From Centroscyllium fabricii (Eukaryota), in assembly GCA_051313645.2 (NCBI GenBank), contig JBNRSN020000010.1:73160001-73224000 (forward strand): a stretch of DNA of 64,000 nt. Direction: 5' to 3'. The stretch's first letter is position 1, and each line of letters opens with the position of its first letter. The position numbers and the translations under genes were made by a program. Below the pieces are notes generated by a model, which was given only the letters and a program-made list of their open reading frames with translations, was not told the DNA's origin and made no database searches. Shown here piece by piece: positions 2,650-64,000 of the stretch.

Positions 2650-4136
2650 CATATTGTCCTACATTATTATTTGTGAGCTTGATTGATCCACCGTATCCCC
2701 GGGAAATGGACATCGCTAATGGAGAGTTGGCTTATTTTCCCAACTACTGCCCAGCGAATGCCCGTAAAACTCTTACGCCTGGTAAAAGCTTGCGTAGGCC
2801 TTCATGAGGTTTTGCATGATCTGCGCATGCGCTGCCGAACTGGAGGGCAGGCGGGAGCCTCTGGGAAAGAGAGACTTAAGAGAGAGCCTGGATAAAGTGT
2901 TTGGAGAGATTAGAAGAGACACTGGAGAGACTAGGGAGAGACACCGAAGATTGGAAAATAGACGAGAGCGCGCGAATGAGCGCGATTTAAGAGAAACGGG
3001 GGAGTTAAAGAAAGACAGAGAAACGAGAGAGACAGACATGGGGAAACAGAAAGTGTACAGATAGAGAATGAGGAGAGATTGGAGAGGAACGCAAGTGAGA
3101 AGTGAATGGCAATGAATCAGAAGAAGAAAAATGCTCAAATTCAGTGCCACCTCAGTCAGTCTCGGGGTGAAACTCTAGCTGGGATCTGACCCAGGGACAC
3201 TGGCCGGGATCTGTGATTTAGAAGCGGCTCTCCGGCACCTCTCCCCTTTACCTGAGCCAAGATTATTTTTATATTTAACTATTTTCTATTCATTCGTTGT
3301 TTGGGGATGTAAGTGCACTGGGCGGGAGAGGGGATTAAAAACCCCACCCCACCTGAGACCTGAAGGCATCAAACGGGTGGCCCGCCTGCCCTCACCGAGA
3401 GTCAGAGGCCGTTTCCATAAATAACCTGGTCTCACAGCCACATCACAGCGCTTCCCAACACTGAGAGTCCCCATCAGACGGGGAATCGCTGGTGTTGTGT
3501 GTTTGGTGTTTCATTGATGTTAAATTCTGATCCCCACATTCTCCTTGTACCCGCGCCGCTGTTGGGTGAAATGTCCAAGTTGGAAGACAGATATTCACAC
3601 AGTGAACTGGAGCGAATCCATTTCATGTGTTGTTCAAGGAGGGGAGAGCGAGTGAGTGGCATTGAAAGAGTTTAATGTCATTAGTTGTTTCTGTCCCGTG
3701 CGCCCTGGAGGAAGTGGGTCTCCCGGTGCCTCGCTCAGAGCCACAAACTCCCTGAATTTACTGGTCGGGAAACTTGTGGCTGGGTTTTTCCATCCGCTGA
3801 TTTTTCTCCTCCTGTGATTACTCTCTGTGTCTGCGAGCAATCCACTAAATCAATCCTCAATCCCTTTACTGCCGAACCGATCGATTGATTCCACCCCTCC
3901 CCTGAATTAATGGGCGCTTTCTGGCTTTATTTAATTAAAAGGAATCGCTCTCTCCGCCTGCTCCCTTCCCAAGACATGCGCAGATCATTCAAAATGACCG
4001 CCGCAAAGTTTTGAATGATCTGCGCATGCGTGCGGCCATTTTGAATGGTGCGCTGGCGGGCTTCATTCATCCGTTTTTTTCACTGTACTGGCGCGGGCCT
4101 AGTCCCGCCCGTGCCGATGTAACGGTGTTCAACCTG
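2650..4136. mobile_element. Tigger/pogo-like (TcMar) element end plus unexplained internal sequence
   Basis: Right TIR ...GTGTTCAACCTG followed by TA at 4137-4138, the same family as the MITEs at 31873 and 33503. No left TIR seen. Confidence 0.55.
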
Positions 4137-25071: not shown

Positions 25072-25847
25072 GCAAGATGGCGGCGCGCATAGACGCAGCG
25101 GCTTTGCGTCTCCCGAATTTGTAGTGTCCCTGGTTCCCGCACTGTTCCTGGAGAGGACAGCGGGGTCGGTGGAGTAGAGCACCGGTGCTCCTCAATCGGG
25201 GCACCGGTGTTGACGCACCAAGCCGTCGTGGTCGTCGGAGCGCCGGGGTGCTGAGAGCTGCGAGGCCGTCGAGGGCCGGGAGCTGTGGGGCCGCCGGGCG
25301 CGGAGAGGTGCGAGGCCCGGGAGCTGTGGCGCCGTCGGGCGCCGAGAGCTGCGAGGCCCGGGAGCTGTGGGGCCGTCGGGCGCTGAGAGCTGCGAGGCCC
25401 GGGAGCTGTGGGGCCGTCGGGCGCTGAGAGCTGCGAGGCCCGGGAGCTGTGGGGCCGTCGGGGGCCGGGAGCTGCGAGGCCCGGGAGCTGTGGGGCCGTC
25501 GGGGGCCGGGAGCTGCGAGGCCCGGGAGCTGTGGGGCCGTCGGGCGCTGAGAGCTGCGAGGCCCGGGAGCTGCGAGGCCGTCGGGCGCTGAGAGCTGCGA
25601 GGCCCGGGAGCTGCGAGGCCGTCGAGGGCTGGGAACTGTGGGGCCATCGTGGCCGGAGCGCCAGGGCCTGCGTGGCCGGGCACCGGGCGCATCGTGGCTG
25701 CAGCGCCGGGTGGTCCTGGTGGGATGGAATGGATCAGACTGGGACTAAAGGACATTTTAATAATTTGGGAGATTGCATGTTTGCATTTCGTTGTTTTGTG
25801 TATGTTCACTTTACAATGACAATAAATTGAATCTTATCTTATCTTAT
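25072..25847 (+). mobile_element. Non-autonomous Rex1-type retroposon with internal GC-rich tandem repeat
   Basis: 5' CAAGATGGCGGCG. Internal GAGCTGCGAGGCCCGGGAGCTGTGGGGCCGTCGGGC repeats (25250-25630). 3' GACAATAAATTGAATCTTATCTTATCTTAT tail. Possible TSD ATGTGAGC/ATGAGAGC. Confidence 0.7.
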
Positions 25848-31872: not shown

Positions 31873-32429
31873 CAGGTTGAAGTTCGTTAATCCGGCACCC
31901 GAACAACCGGCAACTTCGAACGTCCGGCATTAATTTGCCCGACAGCCCCGCGCATGTGCAAAATGGCCACCGTGATCGATGCTTCGGCAAATGATCTGCG
32001 CATGCGCAGATCATTCACAATGGCCGAGCCTGGCCACTGCGAGCCTCCCCGAGCCTGGCCGCTGCGAGCTTCCCCGAGCCTGGCCGCTGCGAGCTTCCCC
32101 GAGCCTGGCCGATGCGAGCTTCACGGAGCCTGGCCGCTGCGAGCTTCACGGAGCCTGGCCGCTGCGAGCTTCCCCGAGCCTGGCCGTTGCGAGCTTCCCC
32201 GAGCCTGGCCGCTGCGAACTTCCGAGCCTGGCCGCTGTGAGTCTCCCCGAGCCGGGTCTCCCCGAACGATCAGTGCATGCGCAGACTACTCAAAATGGCC
32301 ACCGGCCTTTCGCGGAATCCATTTTGAATGGTCTGCGCATGCGCTCGCCGTAACTTCAATCGTTCGGGATTTTCACTTGTCTGGTACGGGCCTGGTCCCG
32401 CCCGTGCCAGATTAACGAACTTCAACCTG
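31873..32429. mobile_element. Tigger-like MITE with TA TSD and internal ~25-bp tandem repeat
   Basis: TA|CAGGTTGAAGTTCGTTAATCCGGCAC ... GTGCCAGATTAACGAACTTCAACCTG|TA. GAGCCTGGCCGCTGCGAGCTTCCCC array at ~32026-32255. Confidence 0.9.
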
Positions 32430-45300: not shown

Positions 45301-46392
45301 TTGAATCGACCGCCTCTCGTGGGTGCTACTTGGCCTACGCTCCGCGGTCAAGGAACACCTGAAAGCCTCAACGGCAGAACTCGTGTACGGTCAGCCGCTG
45401 CGCGTACCCGGAGAGTTCCTGCCCACCGCCACGACACCCTGGTCAGCCAACCAGCAACGCCACGCTTTCGCAGACCGAGCACGACAATTCGCCCCAGTGC
45501 CCACTGGCTGGCACGGCGAACCAGCATCTCACGTACCACATGGCCAAATTCATCTTTGTTCGCCATGACGTCCACCAAGGTCCGCTATGGCCCCCGTACG
45601 ACGAGCCCTACAAAGTTCTCCAGCCAGGTGACAAATTCTTCCTTCTCCAAGTGGGCGACAAGGTGTCGGTCGACCGACTCAAACTGGCGCACATAGAGCC
45701 CAACGAACCCGTGCAAGTTGGCCAACCCCCACCACGGGGCAGACCACCTAAGAGCCCGGCCCGTGCGGACGCCGACCGCCAAGAGCCGATCCGGCCGTCA
45801 CGCCGGTTCGTACACTACCTCCTAGCGGATTCTGGGGGGGAGCGGTGTGGCGCACCAGCCACAGAATGGACACAGTCGGAGCACCGGTGTTGACGCACCA
45901 AAGCCGTCGTGGTCGGAGCGCCGGGGTGCTGAGAGCAACGAGGCCGTCGGGGGCCGGGAGCTGCGAGGCCGTCGGGGGCCGGGAGCTGCGAGGCCGTCGG
46001 GGGCCGGGAGCTGCGAGGCCGTCGGGGGCCGGGAGCTGCGAGGCCGTCGGGGGCCGGCAGCTGCGAGGCCATCGTGGCCGGGCACTGGGAGCATTGTCCT
46101 GGTGGGAAGGAATGGATCAGACTGGGACTAAAGGACATTTTAATATCTTGGGAGATTGCATGTTTGCATTTTGTTGTATTGTGTATGTTCACTTTACAAT
46201 GGCATTGAATTGAATTGAACAATCTGCTTTTCGGTCTGTAGACTTTTAATCAGGCACTGCGCCTTTAAGACACCCTGCATATAAGCAGCCGGCCCGGGGG
46301 CGGAGTCGGAGTTGTAAGCTGCAGTTGAATAAAGCATGTCCAGACTTGTTCACCCCTAGCCTGTCTCCATGGTCTGCAGTTGTAACTCCACA
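42371..46392 (+). mobile_element. Gypsy LTR retrotransposon, CsRn1-like clade, defective (element A)
   Basis: 5'LTR 42371-42566 (TGTGGAG...CTCCACA), degenerate tRNA-Trp PBS TGGTGTCCCTCGACG, gag (VKLPQFWEHHAAAWF), RT (YVDD), RNase H, integrase, PPT ~45834-45845, 3'LTR 45846-46392 and 4-bp TSD CCAA on both sides. Confidence 0.95.
45878..46218 (+). mobile_element. 5'-truncated Rex1-type non-autonomous retroposon inserted in the 3'LTR
   Basis: Matches 25190-25830. (TTGAA)n tail and TSD-like ACAGTC/ACAATC. The 5'LTR is the empty site. Confidence 0.85.
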
Positions 46393-53234: not shown

Positions 53235-55957
53235 TGCACTCTTGGCCCACGCGGCAGCCCAATGCCGCTCCGGGGACCCCGATGCCTACGGCACGCTCCT
53301 GGCAGAGTTCCCCGCCCTTACCAACCCCACGTTCACCGCCCGCAAGGCCAAACACGGGGTGGAACATTTTATAATGACCACAGGTCCTCCAGTCCATGCC
53401 CACGCCCGCAGGCTCGACCCAGCCAAGCAGGAGATCGCGCTCACCGAGTTCCGCACTATGGAGCAACTCGGCATAATCCGCCGCTCCAACAGCCCCTGGG
53501 CCTCACCCCTCCACATAGCCCCCAAGCCCGACGGAGGCTGGCGCCCCTGCGGCGACTACCGCCGCCTTAACAACGCCACCACCCCGGATAAGTACCCCGT
53601 ACCCCACATCCAGGATTTTTCCGCCAGATTGGCAGGGTGTACGATCTTTTCCAAGATCGACCTGGTGCGTGGCTACCACCAGGTGCCCGTACACCCGGCG
53701 GACATTCCCAAAACGGCCGTAATTACCACCTTCGGGCTCTTCGAATTTCTGAGGATGCCCTTCGGCCTCAAAAACGCAGCCCAGGCCTTCCAGCGCCTCA
53801 TGGACTCAGTCCTCAGGGACTTGAAGTTCATATTCGTCTAATTAGACGACATCCTCGTGGCCAGCACCTCCCCCCAGGAACACCTCCTGCACCTCAGGAC
53901 CCTGTTCCAGCGCCTTACCGAGCATGGCCTTATCCTTAGCCCCACCAAATGTAAGTTCGGCCTCGGGACCATTGACTTCCTCGGCCACCGCATTTCGCCC
54001 ACAGGGGCCATTCCCCTGCCCTCCAAGGTACAGGCGGTACAGAAATTTCCCCGCCCGCATACCATTAAAGGGCTACAGGAATTTTTGGGGATGGTAAACT
54101 TCTATAACCGTTTCATCCCTGGAGCAGCCGCTCTCATGGCCCCATTATATCAGGCCACCCGCGGGCAGTCTAACAAGGCTGCGGTGGTGTGGACGGCCGA
54201 CGCCGCCACCGCCTTCACCGCAACTAAAACGGCCTTGGCTAACGCCACCCTCCCGTCCCACCCTGGGCCCAACGCCAGAGTAGCCCTTACCACCGACGCC
54301 TCCGACCACGCAGTCGGGGCCGTATTCGAACAGTGGACCGGCGACTCGTGGCAACCCCTGGCCTTTTTCAGCCGACAACTCCGGCCCCCAGAGGTAAAAT
54401 ACAGCGCCTTTGATAGGGAGCTACTTGCTCTCCATCTGGCGGTGCGACATTTTTGTTTCCTCCTGGAGGGCCGACACTTTACAGCCTTCAGCGACCACAA
54501 GCCACTCACGTTTGCGATGGCTAAGGTCGCTGAACCCTGGTCGGCCAGGCAGCAGCGCCAACTCGCGGCCGTGTCGGAATTTACAACCGACATTCAGCAT
54601 ATTTCCGGCCGCGACAACGTGGTCGCTGACTGCCTCTCACGCCCCACCATTAACGCCGCCCAAATGGCGGTTGATTACGCCCAGCTGGCCGTCGACCAGC
54701 TGGCCGACCCCGACCTACTCAACGCAGCAACTAAGCTCCCCGGCCTACACTTGGCCAAAATCGCGCACGGCCCCGCCGCCACCGTCGTATGCTGCGACGT
54801 TTCGTTACCGCAACCCAGGCCCGTCGTGCCCCACGCTTGGAGGCAACATATCTTTAAGACCCTCCAAGACCTGTCCCACCCCGGCACGCGCGCGTCCATT
54901 AAGCTTGTATCGGCCCATTTCGTATGGCGCGGCCTGCGCAAAGACGTCCACGCCTGGGCCAGCTCCTGCATAGCCTGCCAGCGCTCCAAAGTGCACAAGC
55001 ACATCAGGGCACCGCTGGAAAATTTTACGGTACCGGCCAGACGTTTTGACCACGTCCATATTGACCTCGTCGGGCCACTACCGCCATCTCGCGGTCACAC
55101 GCACCTATTGACCATGGTTGACCGCAACACTCGCTGGCCTGAAGCAGTTCCCCTCACCGCCACCGGCACCACGGACTTGGCCAGGGCATTTATCGCCACC
55201 TGGGTCGCCCGATTCGGCGTGCCCACAGACATCACCTCCGACAGAGGACCCCAGTTTACGTCGACGCTATGGGCGGCCATCGCCCGCGACCTCGGGGTGA
55301 CACTACACAGAACCACCGCATACCATCCACAGGCGAACGGCCTATGCGAACGGTTCCACCGCTCGATGAAGGCATCACTGCGGGCCACGCTGAAAGACGC
55401 ATCATGGACCGACCGCCTACCATGGGTCCTCCTCGGGCTGCGCTCGGCAGTCAAAGAAGACCTCAGCAGCAGAGCTCGTCTACGGCCAAGCTTTAACAGT
55501 GCCGGGCGAATTTCTGGCAGAGCCCAACGCGCCCTGGTCAGCAGACCAGTTTTTGAAAGACTGGGCAAATCCGGCACGAGCTTTCCAGCCACTACCAGTG
55601 GCCTGGCATGGAGAGCCGGCAGCTCGGGTGCCAGAGGACATTAAAAATGCCAAATGGGTGTTCATCCGGCGCGATGGACACCGATCTCCACTACAGCCAC
55701 CTTATGATGGCCCATACAGAGTGCTTCGGGCGGGAGCTAAAACTTTTGAATTACAATTGTGCAACAGAACTGAAACTGTAACGATAGACCGGCTCAAGCC
55801 GGCACATGTGACAGCGGGCGAGACCATGGTCCCCGCACAACCACCTCAACGCGGTCGCCCTCCCGCAACAAAACCCGCCCACACTCCAACGCAGAACCAG
55901 AGACTACTAGCAACACGGTCCGGCCGCATCATCCGGCCGCCCCAACGGCACACATAG
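53232..55957 (+). pseudogene. Gypsy element B pol (RT, RNase H, integrase)
   Basis: RT motifs with YLDD changed to *LDD (TAA at 53839-53841), RNase H TDAS, integrase HHCC and DDE (HIDLVGP, SDRG, ERFHR), a frameshift near 55465 and a GPY motif. Confidence 0.95.
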
Positions 55958-55999
55958 ACACTGTCACTATGCCTCCCGGACGGATTCTGGGGGGAGCTG

Positions 56000-56243
56000 T
56001 GTGGCGGTACGCCCACGGGGACATCGAATCCGCCACGGGGACTCCGCGGAGCAAAGCCCCGCTCATCCGGGTGACGCGACGACGTCATCACGTCGGCCGA
56101 CGCGATGACGTCACCAACCGCGGGACCGTTTAAATATGCCTGTCTCGAGTGGTTCACTCTCTTTCTTGTTTTGTACTAGTGATTGATGCTGTGTTTTTCT
56201 CTAGCTCTGGCTCACGTGTGGTTCCTAGGCCTACCACGCTACA
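56000..56243 (+). repeat. 3' LTR of Gypsy element B
   Basis: PPT GGGGGGAG before TGTGGCG...CGCTACA, followed by GAGA. Confidence 0.93.
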
Positions 56244-56419
56244 GAGAAGTATATTTTATTTTATTTATTTAAGAGAGTTTAAGTTAAAAATAAATTAAAT
56301 TTATTAATTTAAAAGTAGTTTGAAGAAAACCTGAAGTTGAATCCGGGTTTAAAAAGGGGCGGGACTTGGTGCAGCGTGCACGGAGTGCAGCGGGCATAGA
56401 GTGCTGGTGAGAGTTTGGT

Positions 56420-57448
56420 AAGTAGGCCGTAGGCGCAGAGGAAGTCTGCCCCGAGGAGGGGGGAAGTGACCTGGGCCGTTACAAAATCCCAGGTGTACGC
56501 GTGGCTTGCAAGGGTTATAGTTAGCTTGCGGGTGCCGTACGTTTTTATACTAGAGCCGTTGGCTGCCGCTAGTGGCGGGCCCCGGGTACCTCGTTTAGTT
56601 TCTGCAGGGGAGGCTGGCACAATACTGTGCTGCGCGCCTGTGTCGCAGAGGAACCTGGGGCCTGTACCGCTGTCTGTGGCGAAGAGCAGTGCACCTGTGT
56701 GGCCTACAGACATGGTGGGGGCTGAGTTGGGCCGTGGCTTGAACGCGCATGGCTGGACGCAGCGGTGCGCTTTGTGTTCGAACCGCGTGTAGTAATAGCA
56801 CCAGCCGGTGCTAGAGGGACGCGGTTGTCTGGGCGGGCGCGGGGCCCTAGGTTCAGGCGTAAAGTTGTGCATGGGGGGTGATTGGCTGCGCTCTACCGAT
56901 GCGGAGTTAGGGTCGCACGTGGTTGAGCGGGTGCGCTGGGCCTCCATGAGCCTGTCGGCCTCCTCTCCGAGTTCGTCATCGCTCCGGTGGCCAAGGGCCG
57001 CCAAGGCCGGTCTGATGGCGCGGGGCAGTTTGAGGAGGAAGACGGTGCGGAAGAGGGAGGCCGGGTTGGGTGTGAGCGCTTGCATCTGACCTAAGAGGTC
57101 CGATGGGTCTGCGTCCCTGAGTTCGGGGAGGTCGAGGAGCTGGCAGTTGCGCTCGAATTGGGAGGGGGTAAATTTCTTGATGAGCGCGGCCTTGAGCGTT
57201 TCATACCTGCCTGCGCTGGGCACACGCTGGATTTTTGACCACATCCGATCAATCGTCGTCTGTGGTAGGGCTGTGAACACCAGGTCGTAGCGGTCGTCCC
57301 CTTGGATGCCATGTGTGCGGCAGCTGGCCTCAATACAGGTGAACCAGGCCGCTGGCCGTTGCTCCCAGAACTCGGGTAGGGTCAATCCACGCCCGGCGTT
57401 CTGTCCCGCTCCTTGCGTTCGTGGAGCTTGGTTTCTTGGGTTAACCAT
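56420..57448 (-). CDS. Gypsy element B gag-protease (CsRn1-like), truncated by the inversion breakpoint
   Basis: LTLPEFWEQRPAAWF gag start, CYY(Y)...C...C variant of the CHCC motif, protease LCDTGA and LLGADFL. Confidence 0.9.
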
Positions 57449-57535
57449 GTTTTCTGTTAAAAGTCTTTGGCTGGTGGTCCCAGATCTTGCGGCAGCTTAT
57501 CTTCTCTGGAAGTCGTTCCAGTTCGGGGTCACCAC

Positions 57536-57780
57536 TGTAGCGCCGGCAGGCCTAGGAACCACACGTGAGCCAGAGCTAGAGAAAAACACAGCTTTAATCA
57601 CTAGTACAAAACAAGAAAGAGAGTGAACCACTCGAGACAGGCATATTTAAACGGTCCTGCGGTTGGTGACGTCATCGCGTCGGCCGACGTGATGACGTCG
57701 TCGCATCACCCGGATGAGCGGGGCTTTGCTCCACGGAGTCCCCATGGCGGATTCGATGTCCCCGTGGGCGTACCGCCACA
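57536..57780 (-). repeat. 5' LTR of Gypsy element B with tRNA-Trp PBS (57521-57534)
   Basis: Inverted copy of 56000-56243 with about 8-9 differences. Preceded on the minus strand by GAGA and followed by TGGTGACCCCGAAC. Confidence 0.93.
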
Positions 57781-58020
57781 TCTCCAACCTTTTACAGATT
57801 CACCACTTTCTGAACTCACTCCCAGCTCACAGCACTTTTCATACAAGTCCCACCCCTTTTAAAAGCCGGATTCAACTTCCGGTTTTCTTCAAACTACTTT
57901 TAAATTAATAAATTTAATTTATTTTTAACTTAAACTCTCTTAAATAAATAAATAAAATATACTTCTCCAACCTTTCACAGATTCACCACTTTCTGAACTC
58001 ACTCCCAGCTCACAGCACTT
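57781..58020 (-). repeat. Tandemly repeated ~185-bp unit, probable CR1 5' UTR
   Basis: AAGTGCTGTGAGCTGGGAGTGAGTTCAGAAAGTGGTGAATCTGT...GAGAAGTATATTTTATT... repeated. The continuation lies inverted at 56244-56420. Confidence 0.65.
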
Positions 58021-58154
58021 GAGGGAGCCTGTAAAGTGCAAGAGGTCATATCTAGTGAACCTATTAAAACCATACCACTGGTGGGCTCCACTAGTGTTTA
58101 CGTGAATGGTTCCAGGTTTTATGAACAGGGACAATACCTGTAAAGAGGGTGGCC

Positions 58155-60301
58155 TGTGGGGGTCAGCTTTGCCTCTGACTTCATTGAGTGGTTCAAATCG
58201 CTCCCACACCCCTAAGGTTCTAGACACTGGACTTAGGTGCAGGTTTGCAATACGCAAAATGGAATAGACAACAGGTTCAGTGCAAGAAAACTGCTTTTAT
58301 TAAAAATCATCACAATCAAACTTCATAACGGAGAGTAAATCATGTCAAATTAACTTACAGGACTAAACTCATAAACAAGGTACAATAACTAGGCATGGGG
58401 AACATATGGTGCAATGAGGGAAAAATCACAGTTAACTTTACTCCCCTTTAACCTGGTCCCACCCCGACTACCTAGCTAGATTTGGCTATGAGAAGATTAG
58501 ATATTTGTTTATTTGTCACATTCCATATACACAGTCAGCATAGATGGTAGCGAAATACCGTTTCTCCATAAGATCAGATGTAAAGCACAACATAAAAGGA
58601 CACATTAGAAAACATAAAAACATTTAAAACATAGAGAGCAGCATTAAAAGTGCTATTACTTGATTTTAAAAATGCTGGTGTTAAAGTGCTATATGTCTCT
58701 TATCCCCTGGTATCGGTGAGGGGGAATGGAGGGCAACGCTGGGAGCGTGTTCAATGTTCTGATAGCTTGGGGGAAGAAGCTGTTACACAGTCTGGTGGAT
58801 CTTGCCCGGATGCTCCGTAGCCTCTTTCCCGATGGTAGGGGTGCAAAGAGGTGATGGGAGGGATCTGCCATTATGTTGGTGGCCTTCCTGATGCAGCGGT
58901 CCGGGTAGATGTCAGCAAGGAGGGGGAGAGAGACACCTATGATTTTTTCTGCTGCTCTCACTATCCTCTGTAGGGACTTTCGGTCAACGGCTGTACAGTT
59001 CCCATACCAGAGTGTGATGCAGTATGTGAGGATGCTCTCAATAGTCCCTCTGTAGAATGTCGTCATGATGGATGTGGTTGAGTTCACTTTTCTCAGTCTT
59101 CGCAGGAAGTACAGCCGTTGTTGGGCTTTCTTGGTGAGGGCTGTGGTGTTGATTGACCAGTTCAGGTTGTCAGCAATGTGCACCCCCAGGAACTTGGTGC
59201 TGCCGACTCTTTCGACAGCAGTCCCGTTGATGGTCAATGGGGCGTGCACCCTGCGGCCTTTTCTGAAGTCAATGACCATCTCCTTCGTCTTCTCCACATT
59301 CAAGAAGCCCAGGGATTCATGCTCACCAAGCCAAAATTCTGCCACTGCAGTTGTGAGTTTGCTGCTTCTTGTCCCTAGGGGTCTGCCGCTGTCATGCGGT
59401 CGCTCTCCCTCAGGAACTGCACAATACCTGTTGCTGATCAATTTTCCTTTGCTGCTCTGCTCAGAGAGAGTACTGTCTTTTACCCAGCCCTTCAAATTAT
59501 GTACAGGGACTTCGGGTTTCATTCTCTGACTGCACGTCCTGCTGCCCAGATGCTTCGCCAACTTCTTGTTGCGTTCTTCCTCCTTGTCTTCCGAATCTCC
59601 TGTCTTTGCCTGCATTTGGTTCAGATAATTATACCAGTTCTGCATTCGTTTATCTACCCGCCAAATCAAACAAAAACTATTGTCCAGGTTTTGGCGAGCT
59701 TGCAAAAATGATTATGGCCATTGATCTTAACGAGTTTCTGGATGGTGGTCATCTCCCTTAATGGCCCTGTCATTTTGGGCGCTTTGTTCTGGGAGGTGTC
59801 AACTGCCCAGTATCTTTGTTTGAATTGTTTTGAAGTTTGAAAGTTTTAGTTGTGCAAAAGGGTCTAGTTACTGGTTTCTGCCTCAACGGCCAAGTTAATG
59901 AGGGGTGCTCATTTATGCACCAGCCTCAATCGTTATCAAGTTTGTGAGATCGCATCATCTCCGGATCCTGTCTGTTTGGAAGTGTATTGGGCTCCCTGCT
60001 GGCTGGCTGGTATGCAAGACTGGCTTTCTGGTTTCAGGTATGTCACATTCCATGCCCCTTGACCTTGGCCATGGGCCTAATGTCTGTTTTAAAACTCACA
60101 ACCTTTTGCTGGAAGCCCTTTTCTTCGTACGGTTTTTATTATTAATAACTGCGAAGAGTGTGGGAATTTTGCGAATCTTACTCGGCTCCCTCTGATACTG
60201 AACTTTACTTCAAGTATCACTCTGGTGCCTGGTAAACAAAATTCCTGCCCTCATAGCCAGTCTTCCCCTGTAATTACCTATAAAGTCCTATGGCACATAC
60301 A
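58155..60301 (-). repeat. Long 3' LTR (~1.33 kb after removing the Rex1 insert) of a second ERV
   Basis: Minus strand: TTTTTAAAGGAATAGGAAA (U-tract plus PPT) then TGT at 60301, TATA-like GGTATAAT ~59630, AATAAA ~58296-58301 and end ...CCCACA at 58155, where the first ERV's pol resumes on the other side. Confidence 0.7.
58496..59302 (-). mobile_element. Rex1/Babar LINE 3' fragment with 5-bp TSD (AGAAG)
   Basis: LNVEKTKEMVIDFRK, KFLGVHI, KAQQRLYFLRRL, IESILTYCIT.WYGN, SFFPQAIR and tail TGTGACAAATAAAC. Confidence 0.92.
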
Positions 60302-60900
60302 TTTCCTATTCCTTTAAAAATGCGGTGTTCATAAGAACCATAGGCATACTACAGTCCTGCTTACACATCATCCAAGCGTGGAGGGGTTCCAACGCCCCGA
60401 CACTACTTGGTATACATACATTTTATTCTTAACACATAGTCAAACTTTATTAGCGAAAAACGAAACACACAAAAAAACAACAGTCTTTATTAAAACCAAA
60501 AAACTCAAACTGGTGAATCCTTCTCCACCTGCATGTAATGCTTTTTCCAGATCCTCTGCTTCTGGAATGCTAGGGTCCTGCCTTCCCCTTGCACTGAGTG
60601 CATAACAGATATAAGACTATACCCATCTGGAAAACCACGAGGATGTGGGAAACTAGCCTAATCCAAGAAGGGACTTCAATATTCTCAAAGATGTCCCACC
60701 AAGGTGGAATCACAATATCCAAAATCTGGGCCCCTATGTCAACGGTTTTCTGCTCTAGTGTGCAAAAGTGTTTTTGTGATACCACTACTGCCTTTAATAA
60801 TTTTGTCAGGTGCTCGGGTAGAGGAAGAATTGCATATCTGAAATGTGCTACATATTTCTGTAGATTTGTGAAGTTTTCCTTTACAGTGAGGTGAACAGTG

Positions 60901-62552
60901 GAGGGACCGACTGCAACGTATCCAAGTTTGCTGATGATACTAAGATGGGAGGGAAAGCAGTGAGTGAGGAGGACATAAAAAACCTGCAAAGGGACATAGA
61001 CAGGCTAGGTGAGTGGGCAAAGATTTGGCAGATGGAATATAATGTTGGAAAGTGTGAGGTTATGCACTTTGGCAAAAAAAATCAAAGAGCAAATTATTAT
61101 CTGAATGGAGAGAAACTGCATCTGTACAAAGGGATCTGGGGGTCATGGTGCATGAAACGCAGAAGGTTAGTATACAGGTACAGCAGGTGATCCGGAAGGC
61201 CAATAGAATCATGGCTTTTATTGCAAGGGGGTGGAGTATAAAAACAGGGAAGTTCTGCTACAATTATACAGGGTGTTGGTGAGGCCACATCTGGAATACT
61301 GCGTACAGTTTTGGTTTCCATATTTGAGAAAGGATATACTTGCTCTCGAGGCAGTTCAGAGAAGATTCACTCGGTTGATTCTGGAGATGAGGGGGTTGAC
61401 TTATGAGGAAAGGTTGAGTAGGTTGGGCCTCTACTCATTGGAGTTCAGAAGAGTGAGAGGCGATCTTATCAAAACATATAAGATTGTGAGGGGGCTTGAT
61501 CGGGTGGATGCGGTGAGGATGTTTCCACTGATAGGTGAGACTAGAACTAGGGGGCATAATCTGAGAATAAGGGGCTGCCCTTTCTAAACTGAGATGAGAA
61601 GATGGGTGTTGGGGCTGTGGAATTTACTGCCCCAGAGAGCTGTGGAAGCTACTACAGGTTGCGCACCGGAAATCCGGCACGGGCGGGACCAGGCCCGTGC
61701 CAGGAAAGTGAAAAAAACGGCAGAATGAAGTCGGTCAGTGGGCATGCGCGCACCATGCAAAATGGCCACGCGCATGCGCACAACATTGGAAATGGCCGCT
61801 GAACGTCTTTGTGGAGTCTCAGCTGACGGCCAGCAGGCTGCTCCGGGAAACGCGCGCTTCCCCTTGGCGGGCGCTCGGGACTCGCACATTCAAAACGCGA
61901 CGCGAGCCGCCGTGCCCTGATGCCACGGAAGGCCCGGCGGCCATTTTGAATGATCTGCGCATGCGCTAGCCGTCCGGCGACGCATGCACAGATCATTCAA
62001 AACACCCGGCAGCCGTTTTGAATGATCTGCGCATGCGCTAGCCGTTCGGCGGCGCATGCGCAGATCATTCGCCGAAGCCGCGATCGCGGCTGCCATCTTG
62101 CGCATGCGCAGTGCAGTCGGGGCAATTTGTTCCGGCAGACTGAAGCTGCCGGCGTTTCGGGTCACAGATTTTCGGTGCACAACCTGTACTTTGAATAAAT
62201 TTTAAACCGAGATAGGCAGTTTCTTGGAAGTAAAGGGAATTATGGGTTACGGTGAGCGGGCAGGTAAGTGGACATAAGGCTAGGTTCAGAGCGGCCATGT
62301 GATCTCCTGGACAAGTTTCGATCACCTAGATGGGTCGGAGAGGAGTTTCTCAGATTTTTTCTCCCAAATTGGCCACTGGGTTTGTGTCTGATTTTTCGCC
62401 TCTCCCGGGAGATCACATGGGTTCGGGCGGGATGGAGAGTGAAAGTAGATTTGAGGTTAGGATCAGATCAGCCATGATCTTGTTAAATGGCGGTGCAGGC
62501 TCGAGTGGCTGAATGGCCTACTCCTGCTCCTATTTCTTATGTTCTTGTGTTC
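60901..62552 (+). mobile_element. CR1 LINE 3' fragment inserted in env
   Basis: KFADDTK, LVRPHLEY and a tail ending TTCTTATGTTCTTGTGTTC. Confidence 0.93.
61655..62186. mobile_element. Tigger-like MITE with TA TSD inside CR1
   Basis: TA|CAGGTTGCGCACCGGAAATC ... GATTTTCGGTGCACAACCTG|TA. Empty site GAAGCTACTACTTTGAATAAA seen in the CR1 copy at ~9650. Confidence 0.93.
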
Positions 62553-63044
62553 AGGAATGGAGACAATTTGTTCCTGGGCCACTGAACTTCTGCCTCGGGT
62601 TTAAAGCAGAAACTGCTGTCACTTACCGGACACCAACCATGCTGTCCAAGCTGGCAGTGAGGCGCACTGATGGTGACACAATATGTCCCACCTCCTATAT
62701 ATGCTACCTGTGGGGGAACATAGCGTTGTGCCATTACCTCCATGATACAGTTTGTAGGTTTTGCTCCAGCAGCTTTAAACCCACACTTTGGTTTTGAATA
62801 GGCGTTCAAGTGCTGGGGATACAGTATTAATTGTGAACTCCAGCTCCGGCACCCGGAGAGGTCTGTACCTGTCACAGCGTGCTCCCACTTTATGACGTAA
62901 GGTGGGACCGCTGCGAACGAACGTGTGCACCCCTATGAATGACTCCAATATTCTCCACCCTGTATACCGGCGCAGGTCAGGCTGTCCTCCCCATGTCTGG
63001 CATCCTTATTATTATACCCATAATTGTGTGGTTGGACTTTCCAC

Positions 63045-63328
63045 AGGCTAGATGGAGCTGACACTCCTGTGATCTCCTGGACTAGTTTTCGATCGCTTAG
63101 ATGGGTCGGAGAGGAATTTCCCAGATTTTTTCTCCCAAATTGGCTACTGGGTTTTTTATCTGGTTTTTCGCCTCTCCCGGGTGATCACATGTGTTTGGGT
63201 GGGATGGAAAGTTAAAATAAAATTGAGGTTGGGATCAGATCAGCCATGATCTTGTTGAATGGCGGAGCGGGCTCGAGGGGCCGATTGGCCTACTCCTGCT
63301 CCTATTTCTTATGTTCTTATGTTCTTAT
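63045..63328 (+). mobile_element. CR1 3' tail
   Basis: Near-identical to 9770-10022. Confidence 0.9.
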
Positions 63329-63592
63329 GACACGGGCTCAGCAAATTACTAAACGGATGGAGGGCTGCGAGGTGCTTGTTACTGATCGTGGGTTCATGTC
63401 ACGCTACATGTAACCTCACCTGACGTAGAGTGATCCAGACTCGAGTCGTCATTGGCTTGTTCTGCGGCTGGACCTGCTGTGATTTCCAGCAAAACATTTT
63501 CTTTTTCATTTTATTTTTTGTTGCTTTTTACCTGTTTTTTGTTTTTGTTATGGACCCCAGCATGTGCAACATTTGACCCCTTGTGATCCCAC

Positions 63593-63772
63593 CTCACTGT
63601 TCTTTATATATATATATATATGCTGTGCCTTTATGAATCTCTTCACTTCACCTGATGAAGGAGCAACGCTCCAAAAGCTTGTGATTTCAAATAAAACTGT
63701 TGGACTATAACCTGGTGTTGTGTGTCTTCTTACATTTGTCCACCCCAGTCTAACACCGGCACCTCCACATCA
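63593..63772 (+). mobile_element. Penelope-type short element (single arm)
   Basis: Matches the right arm of 4303-4468 including CTGATGAAGGAGCAACGCTCC. Confidence 0.75.
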
Positions 63773-64000
63773 TTAAATCCTCCAGGTTACTACGGCCCTT
63801 GCCTAGCAACCACGCCCCATACAGTATGCACACCTTGTTCTGTGCAGCCTGGTACGAAGCATTCCTGTCTTCCCGTATTAAAACGTTTACCATTTTGGTG
63901 TGTCTTTCCAGCTCAGCCATAATCTCTTTTAAATGGACCGTCATAGCCTGGTCCTTGTGTAGCTCTGAATTTACCAGTGTTTTCGTCCATCAAAATCTTA

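What the first reader, a model, noticed from the sequence alone, without database searches (positions are those of the whole stretch)
58155..64000. Foamy-virus-like (or Loki-like) endogenous retrovirus: Env TM region plus a ~1.3-kb LTR in a shark-type genome
Seen: after removing the CR1, MITE and Penelope-type insertions, the minus strand gives a colinear Env. It reads heptad segment, VYRVENIG..HV..PPYVI..DLSGC..KCG..NC..QVAYIGGGTYCV..C, helical linker, aromatic membrane-proximal WW, TM helix and a very short tail. About 250 bp later come a U-tract plus PPT (TTTTTAAAGGAATAGGAAA) and a TGT...ACA LTR of ~1335 bp with TATA-like and AATAAA signals. Knowledge: prototype foamy virus TM has the same order (WNVVNIG..HV..HPY..LEDC..PCG..DC..QV.PL.NGSYLV..C) and a short tail. 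Foamy-type LTRs are long, and gamma-type TMs instead carry an ISD/CX6CC motif, which was not seen here. Inference: a spumavirus-related or lokiretrovirus-type ERV, a group with few described members in cartilaginous fish.
Basis: partly seen in the sequence, partly recalled or inferred. Interest (0 to 1): 0.8.

Follow-up and report, generated by a model that had tools for sequence, protein, structure and literature searches.

The report
Dead shark retrovirus, measles-type envelope
This is a broken, polymerase-less copy of an abundant endogenous retrovirus in a likely shark genome; its family's envelope is predicted to fold like measles/RSV-type fusion proteins with a probable antibody-like domain at the tip, and its reverse transcriptase groups with ordinary retroviruses rather than lokiretroviruses and is likely not foamy, which suggests this kind of envelope is older and more widespread among retroviruses than assumed.

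Summary
The env remnant and LTR are real, but both LTR ends were misplaced: the 3' LTR is 60182-58139 (1,237 bp plus an 807-bp LINE insert). A partial 5' LTR lies 3 kb beyond the window, with a 4-bp target duplication. This copy is dead: no primer site, protease, RT, RNase H or integrase core, and env has lost its cleavage site and fusion peptide. The family is large (150 of 150 scored RT and env hits); its primer site matches tRNA-Arg(TCG). Gag has a CCHC knuckle and an in-frame stop before pol, so it is not foamy-built. RT falls inside canonical retroviruses (98/98), unresolved beside snakehead retrovirus (SnRV); a lokiretrovirus grouping is rejected (p 0.03). Yet tether, integrase and Env score best against lokiretroviruses. 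A model of a natural family Env matches paramyxo/pneumovirus F; a profile of it hits Loki, SnRV and foamy Env. Relatives occur in sharks, a skate, frogs and coelacanth. Verdict: an SnRV-like (clade Huo/class III) ERV with an F-type (class Ib) Env and a probable N-terminal Ig domain; a new variant of a known kind. The scan noted the same kind four times in other genomes.

The parts
58135..58138 (.). 4-bp target site duplication, 3' side (second copy beyond the window at L013 4082-4085)
   Evidence: 4-bp TSDs also at 8 of 22 other LTR loci (2 had a primer site instead, 12 not parsed)
58139..60182 (-). 3' LTR, 1,237 bp without its insert; ends ...TTACA; AATAAA at 58301
58496..59302 (-). 807-bp LINE 3' fragment inserted in the LTR (Pfam ALKBH8_N E 2e-19); absent from the other copies aligned
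60183..60192 (-). polypurine tract directly before the LTR
   Evidence: same purine run before the LTR start in 7 other 3' LTRs
60193..60569 (-).
60570..60905 (-). env 3' end: HRB-like helix, WW, TM helix, ~10-residue tail, stop
   Evidence: 75% to P0073 aa 728-835
60906..62548 (.). 1,643-bp composite insert in env: CR1-type LINE piece, MITE-like and SINE-like repeats
62549..63045 (-). env middle: Cys-rich F-type domains (VENIG ... QVAYIGGG), frameshifted
63046..63327 (.). ~280-bp SINE/CR1-tail-like insert in env (repeat family D5)
63328..63387 (-). 60-bp env piece between two inserts
63388..63772 (.). 385-bp insert in env (class not tested)
63773..64000 (-). env heptad-repeat (HRA-like) region. 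The provirus runs on 3,081 bp past the window in locus L013 (minus strand): env 5' part with signal region, probable Ig-like domain, linker and start of F2 (L013 1033-1872; the part matching P0073 aa 355-420, cleavage site and fusion peptide, is deleted); pol tail and linker (2101-2906); 3' gag with CCHC knuckle (2907-3708); first ~377 bp of the 5' LTR (3705-4081)
   Evidence: (76% to P0073 aa 453-520)
57991..58134 (+). insertion target: start of the RNase H of an older, oppositely oriented related ERV, which continues beyond the 5' LTR (L013 from 4082)

Best explanation
This is a dead provirus of a large, likely shark retrovirus family of the snakehead-retrovirus-like (clade Huo/class III) grade, whose envelope is predicted to be a paramyxovirus-F-type (class Ib) fusion protein carrying a probable Ig-like attachment domain at its N-terminus. 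Shown: LTRs, 4-bp TSD, family primer site complementary to a genomic tRNA-Arg(TCG), gag with a coiled region and CCHC knuckle, in-frame stop before pol, pol with RT, tether, RNase H and integrase, env with an RxKR site, heptad repeats and TM. Inferred: the virus read through the gag stop to make Gag-Pol, primed on tRNA-Arg, was cut by a furin-like protease, bound cells through the N-terminal domain and fused by F-like refolding; it spread by reinfection (env dN/dS about 0.1). This copy belongs to a pol-less gag-linker-env layout that other copies share, so it was likely mobilised in trans by pol-bearing relatives; after integrating into the RNase H of an older relative it lost its primer site and fusion peptide and took four retroelement inserts.
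For: Structure and boundaries. Primer. Domains. RT tree: canonical retroviruses 98/98, shark+Loki rejected p 0.03, shark+SnRV not rejected p 0.34; RT bit scores SnRV 205, foamy 140-156, Loki-type 65-130. Env: Foldseek top hits hPIV3, RSV, Langya, NDV F (E 1e-11 to 5e-9); VIA Z 10.6 NDV F (rmsd 18.2, 359 aligned), Z 7.8 prefusion foamy Env (rmsd 5.7, 280 aligned); profile hits Loki-type Env E 4e-19, SnRV 1.5e-9, foamy 2.7e-6, no gamma or delta frame under 0.02 (those loci were cut and may lack TM). Ig: Pfam Ig_3 E 0.011-0.12 in 3 of 4 family slices, C/W/DxGxYxC pattern, Z about 5 to CD147, CD79b and obscurin Ig59. Selection. Shared pol-less junction.
Against: RT does not resolve a clade with SnRV (polytomy) and does not reject shark+foamy (p 0.16). 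Tether, integrase and Env score closer to Loki than to SnRV (70-79 vs 30; 203-204 vs 117), and core+SnRV is weakly rejected for integrase (p 0.048). The model is only moderate (mean pLDDT 63.5, pTM 0.49). Every Ig hit is under Pfam's cutoff and the profile found no PDB match.
Confidence: 0.72

Rival explanations
1. A divergent lokiretrovirus (first in cartilaginous fish), or a recombinant that carries a canonical RT in an otherwise lokiretroviral genome.
For: Tether, integrase and Env score best against Loki-type loci L089-L091 among named lineages; in the integrase tree the 10 core rows and 2 Loki rows form one side of a branch (63/90); dual RNase H and RxKR Env fit the Loki description (PMC7947760); nearest named Pol proteins are 'NYNRIN-like', as Loki integrase is CGIN1-like.
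Against: Loki is defined by RT position sister to canonical retroviruses; here RT is inside them (98/98) and shark+Loki is rejected (p 0.03 and 0.009). The published Loki set has CPFG 18 times and LPQG never in the part of the supplement read; this family has LPQG. Its pol lacks the long region before RT seen in Loki (1,745-aa frame in L090).
Confidence: 0.17
2. A foamy-like ERV related to the shark/frog FLERVs.
For: Env TM homology to foamy Env (hhalign 88.7%, E 2.6e-6; Z 7.8-8.4); best PDB hits of the RT stretch are foamy RT; long LTR and 4-bp TSD; shark3+foamy not rejected (p 0.16).
Against: CCHC knuckle and no Pfam spumavirus Gag domain; pol in frame behind the gag stop whereas foamy pol overlaps gag in another frame; tether scores to foamy 11 bits or less; Arg primer; F2 runs straight to the cleavage site with no large inserted receptor-binding domain; core+foamy p 0.048. 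No SnRV or Loki RT appears among the PDB hits shown, so foamy may be best by default.
Confidence: 0.06
3. The pol-less layout is only a post-integration deletion in this copy, not a transmitted non-autonomous form.
For: This copy has other private deletions (5' LTR to gag; env aa 355-420), and the C756 copy of the same subfamily has a different pol deletion.
Against: The 200-bp linker between gag and the pol tail is 71% identical to the linker at the same place in a pol-less copy whose LTRs are 99.7% identical, and matches no pol-bearing locus fetched.
Confidence: 0.15

Closest known systems
Snakehead retrovirus (SnRV) and SnRV-like / clade Huo / class III ERVs (PMC6001957, PMC12193657, PMC4977317)
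   Same: RT best score among named viruses (43% over 262 aa); similar primer site after ...TTACA; coiled Gag with one CCHC knuckle; in-frame stop before pol; Env homologous over F2 and F1.
   Different: Tether and integrase closer to Loki; Env about 780 aa against 1,134; tail of 10-35 residues against 136; no 3' accessory ORF seen; monophyly with SnRV not shown.
CmiERV lineage I of the elephant shark (Han 2015, PMC4422223)
   Same: Shark ERV clustered with SnRV; by eye its RT and integrase motifs are of the same kind (supplement).
   Different: By eye its Env is gamma-type (LQNR motif and CX6CC) and its primer site is different, so Env has likely been swapped within this pol grade.
Lokiretroviruses (Wang and Han 2021, PMC7947760)
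   Same: F-like Env with RxKR site (hhalign 98.2%), dual RNase H, similar tether and CGIN1/NYNRIN-type integrase.
   Different: RT motif and tree position; no long pre-RT region; extra N-terminal domain on Env; Loki was not reported from cartilaginous fish (not in the host list; no asterisk on Callorhinchus or Rhincodon).
Foamy viruses (Env structures, PMC11468914)
   Same: Class Ib fusion core, TM motif order, long LTR, 4-bp TSD (recalled for foamy).
   Different: Gag type, gag-pol arrangement, primer, tether; extra domain at the N-terminus (the coronavirus-spike-like layout in that paper's terms) and not inserted between the subunits.
Paramyxo/pneumovirus F proteins
   Same: Top fold matches; Pfam Fusion_gly E 0.011 on one family piece.
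   Different: 8-14% identity; carries its own probable attachment domain.

Membership tests
Endogenous retrovirus | Paired LTRs, PPT, TSD | tested here: met
   5' LTR only partial
Endogenous retrovirus | tRNA primer site | tested here: met
   In the family, 17 nt complementary to a genomic tRNA-Arg(TCG); deleted in this copy
Endogenous retrovirus | gag, pol with dual RNase H, env | tested here: met
   Family members; pol core absent in this copy
Lokiretrovirus | RT sister to, not inside, canonical retroviruses | tested here: not met
   (three natural Loki-type rows found by motif; published rows not used)
Lokiretrovirus | Env related to paramyxo/pneumovirus F with RxKR site | tested here: met
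Lokiretrovirus | CGIN1-like integrase | tested here: inconclusive
   Best scores to NYNRIN-like and Loki rows; branch support 63/90; no CGIN1 row
Foamy virus | Gag without Cys-His knuckle, with spumavirus Gag domains (recalled definition) | tested here: not met
Foamy virus | Pol made apart from Gag, not by reading through a gag stop (recalled definition) | tested here: not met
   pol frame follows the gag stop in frame; expression itself not tested
Foamy virus | RT inside the foamy clade | tested here: inconclusive
   Outside foamy in the best tree; p 0.048 (core) and 0.16 (three closest rows); no fish or shark FLERV rows
Foamy virus | Large receptor-binding domain between the Env subunits (PMC11468914) | tested here: not met
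   F2 to cleavage site spans about 90 residues in P0073
SnRV-like / clade Huo | RT groups with SnRV | tested here: inconclusive
   Best score, polytomy in tree, not rejected p 0.34-0.41
SnRV-like / clade Huo | CCHC Gag, in-frame gag-pol stop, homologous Env, Arg primer (SnRV's primer identity recalled) | tested here: met
Gamma-type Env | ISD and CX6CC in TM | tested here: not met
Class Ib fusion protein | F-type three-domain core built from both subunits | tested here: met
   Predicted model only:
Ig superfamily domain | Beta-sandwich with B-strand Cys, C-strand Trp, DxGxYxC | tested here: inconclusive
   Pattern present; Pfam below cutoff; Z about 5; no PDB profile hit

The most novel reading that the evidence does not exclude
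The F-type (class Ib) envelope is the ancestral envelope of all retroviruses. This shark/frog/coelacanth grade, at the base of canonical retroviruses by RT but keeping Loki-like tether, integrase and Env, links lokiretrovirus, SnRV and foamy Env by sequence, shows that a virus classed in Orthoretrovirinae (SnRV) uses a class Ib Env, and adds an N-terminal Ig-domain attachment layout, spread in part by pol-less gag-env genomes.
Probability: 0.4. Interest if true: 0.78.

Novelty: new variant of a known kind. Interest (0 to 1): 0.52.

Why it matters
Wang and Han found no overall similarity between lokiretrovirus Env and other retroviral Env and left four origin scenarios open (PMC7947760). Fernandez et al. 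place orthoretrovirus Env in class Ia and foamy Env in class Ib (PMC11468914). One profile from this family detects Loki-type, SnRV and foamy Env, and the fold search also returns walleye epsilonretrovirus Env (E 2e-11 and 3e-8). That favours one old F-type Env later replaced in most orthoretroviruses, and SnRV, a cultured virus, makes it testable by structure. The copy in the window is itself only a fossil.

Tried and rejected
Single-sequence fold of P0073 failed (pLDDT 34.5). Pfam and PDB sequence searches on window env pieces, P0002 and P0073 found nothing useful. The first foamy Env test used loci cut before TM and was redone with whole records; gamma and delta Env were not redone with whole records. 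The Loki motif found no viral contig but 3 metagenome contigs; whether this genome holds canonical Loki elements was not tested. The mixture-model careful RT tree did not finish; the quick one agreed in outline. For the tested trees 17 of 51 RT rows, 11 of 40 integrase rows and 12 of 40 tether rows were left out (redundant foamy, gamma, delta and gypsy rows, one shark and one frog duplicate); P0022 lacked RT coverage. No RNase H tree was built (scores low and flat). Protein Atlas gave no answer. Expression: no RNA holder listed on record; two runs guessed to be RNA cover env but are contigs and may be DNA. No complex was predicted. Dating is weak: K2P 0.10 over 377 bp is about 23 My at the mammalian rate used in PMC7947760 and about 230 My at the shark rate assumed in PMC4422223. 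Paper searches found no description of an F-type or Ig-tipped Env in SnRV-like ERVs; two J Virol papers on anamniote Env (recalled) and on cartilaginous-fish foamy ERVs (cited) were not held and may bear on novelty, as may the last 18 pages of the Loki supplement and bioRxiv supplements.
Full report
Setting. The window is G000:C2:73160001-73224000 in a 7.2-Gb genome. The closest named Env relatives are from a skate (82% over 54% of the query) and a sawshark (52-72%), so the host is likely a cartilaginous fish (inference).

Observation. Five env pieces lie on the minus strand between 63977 and 60582 and are 60-76% identical to a natural unbroken family Env, P0073. Three inserts split them (385, about 280 and 1,643 bp), the largest holding a CR1-type RT piece. 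A search with 59340-60320 gave 42 matches (40 of 4,363 candidates scored); 26 begin at window 60181-60176, and the 8 non-self loci that reach further all continue into env or the 3' UTR. Copies begin TGTAGG after a purine run and end TTACA. The LTR is therefore 60182-58139, 1,237 bp plus an 807-bp LINE piece, not 60301-58155.

The provirus. In the next stretch (L013, position = window + 63000 offset) lie the 5' part of env, the tail of pol, the 3' part of gag and 377 bp of a 5' LTR ending at L013 4081. A 4-bp duplication flanks the whole; 8 of 22 other LTR loci show 4-bp TSDs, 2 are followed by a primer site and 12 were not parsed. The target is the RNase H of an older relative on the plus strand: tblastn places residues 565-585 of P0014 left of the insertion and 585-625 right of it, and that element has its own integrase and F-type env (39% to P0088, E 2e-35). 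This copy lacks the primer site, 5' gag, protease, RT, RNase H, integrase core, and the env cleavage site and fusion peptide; it cannot replicate. LTR distance is K2P 0.10.

The family. RT and env searches each filled the 150-hit limit (84-100% and 76-100% identity). Some copies have long open pol frames, others open env frames of 841-863 codons, 98-99% alike; I did not look for a copy with all genes open. Pol has RT, tether, RNase H and integrase; Gag has a coiled region and one CCHC knuckle; pol follows the gag stop in frame. The primer site in L033 and L034 is complementary over 17 nt to a tRNA end found 130 times in the genome (control 0), one locus of 6 being called tRNA-Arg(TCG) by ARAGORN. 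Env dN/dS is about 0.11 between two subfamilies (dN 0.10, dS 0.87; 526 codons) and about 0.08 for the window's subfamily with dS saturated. One copy with 99.7% identical LTRs has gag, a 70-codon linker, the pol tail and env but no pol core; its linker is 71% identical to the window copy's and matches no pol-bearing locus fetched. I infer a transmitted pol-less form helped in trans.

Env. A profile search of 1.84 billion proteins gave 52 hits; of 10 looked up, 8 were named, from three sharks, four frogs and coelacanth. A model from 47 natural sequences (pLDDT 63.5) matched paramyxo/pneumovirus F at all top ranks, foamy Env at Z 7.8-8.4 and walleye epsilonretrovirus Env among viral models. The profile hit Loki-type Env (E 4e-19, 2e-18), SnRV Env (1.5e-9) and 4 of 11 foamy records at E under 0.01, best 2.7e-6; hhalign gave 98.2% (Loki), 93.2% (SnRV) and 88.7% (foamy). 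Residues about 84-168 of the model form a beta-sandwich with Z about 5 to Ig domains and Pfam Ig_3 E 0.011-0.12 in 3 of 4 family slices; P0088 is named 'Ig-like domain-containing' by UniRef and P0113 and the SnRV N-terminus give weak V-set hits. The Ig call is probable, not shown, and its role in attachment is inference.

Pol position. Nearest named proteins are 'NYNRIN-like' and similar ORFs of frogs and coelacanth at 43-49%. In a 34-row RT tree the family lies inside canonical retroviruses (98/98), outside foamy plus gamma/delta/epsilon-like rows (87/95), in a polytomy with SnRV; Loki-type rows are sister to all of these. AU tests on the three closest rows: with Loki p 0.03, with foamy p 0.16, with SnRV p 0.34; on the ten-row grade 0.009, 0.048, 0.41. 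By domain, RT scores best to SnRV, tether and integrase best to Loki; the tether tree shows a grade between Loki and SnRV, and the integrase tree puts Loki among the frog and coelacanth rows at 91/90. Shared ancestral states explain this most simply; recombination is not excluded.

Literature seen. PMC7947760: parts 1-3 of 4 of the text, supplement parts 1 and 29 and term searches. PMC9040795: part 1 of 4. PMC4422223: part 1 of 2 and part 1 of supplement 1; its SnRV-clustered shark ERV has, by eye, similar pol motifs and a gamma-type Env. PMC11468914: passages and section 10. Passages only: PMC6001957, PMC11089739 (most cartilaginous-fish ERV RTs are clade III), PMC12440569, PMC13524379, PMC5512871, PMC12193657, PMC4977317, bioRxiv 2024.03.17.585361. 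So the pol lineage in sharks is known; eight searches found no account of its F-type, Ig-tipped Env.

Earlier scan notes. Four notes on other genomes reach the same reading; I saw them after my main trees and folds, and they are not independent support.

Verdict. A real but dead ERV; neither foamy-built nor a lokiretrovirus by RT; an SnRV-like ERV with a class Ib Env. Interest lies in the family and in what it implies for the origin of retroviral Env.

Noticed in passing
window 57991-58134 (+) and L013 4082-9492 (+): The insertion target is an older ERV of the same broad grade with RNase H, integrase and an F-type env closer to the bamboo-shark protein P0088 than to this family; two divergent F-Env families are nested here.
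   Followed up: partly
window 53842-57957: Two Gypsy-type LTR retrotransposon pieces in opposite orientation (pol on +, gag-protease on -) with 97% identical inverted LTR copies at 56000-56235 and 57545-57780, cutting off the target ERV on its left.
   Followed up: no
L028, L030, L032, L035, L016: All four copies picked for long pol frames, and the C756 copy, carry large inserts (Gypsy-like or LINE-like) between pol and env or inside env.
   Followed up: no
L088:6131-9532: SnRV Env aligns to this family over F2 and F1 and has a weak V-set hit near its N-terminus; not found described in the papers searched.
   Followed up: partly
BFVD hits Q9WHI8 and A4GTG3: Walleye epidermal hyperplasia and dermal sarcoma virus Env models match the F-type model (E 2e-11, 3e-8), hinting that these epsilonretroviruses also have class Ib Env.
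   Followed up: no
P0123, P0129-P0142: A 16-member cluster of mostly 677-aa Env proteins of this kind in one frog genome (Mantella), and 3 in Bombina, suggests recent expansions in frogs.
   Followed up: no
P0006, P0009: Skate Env pieces are 79-82% identical to a subfamily in this genome, closer than the window's own subfamily is, which suggests transfer between species if the host is a shark.
   Followed up: no
P0011, P0083, P0086, P0106: Gene models fuse env pieces to host genes (Niban, zinc finger, cadherin, F-box); probably annotation artefacts.
   Followed up: no
G000:C811:22.4-25.4 Mb, loci L123-L128: A large cluster of tRNA-Arg(TCG)-end matches, many about 1.9 kb apart; several fetched genes elsewhere carry an intron.
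   Followed up: no
L044:1690-2999: Contigs of all three runs laid join across a 1,308-base gap in env, i.e. an internally deleted env form; runs may be DNA.
   Followed up: no
window 25188-25679, 32001-32247, 45905-46095: GC-rich 41-nt and 25-nt tandem arrays.
   Followed up: no
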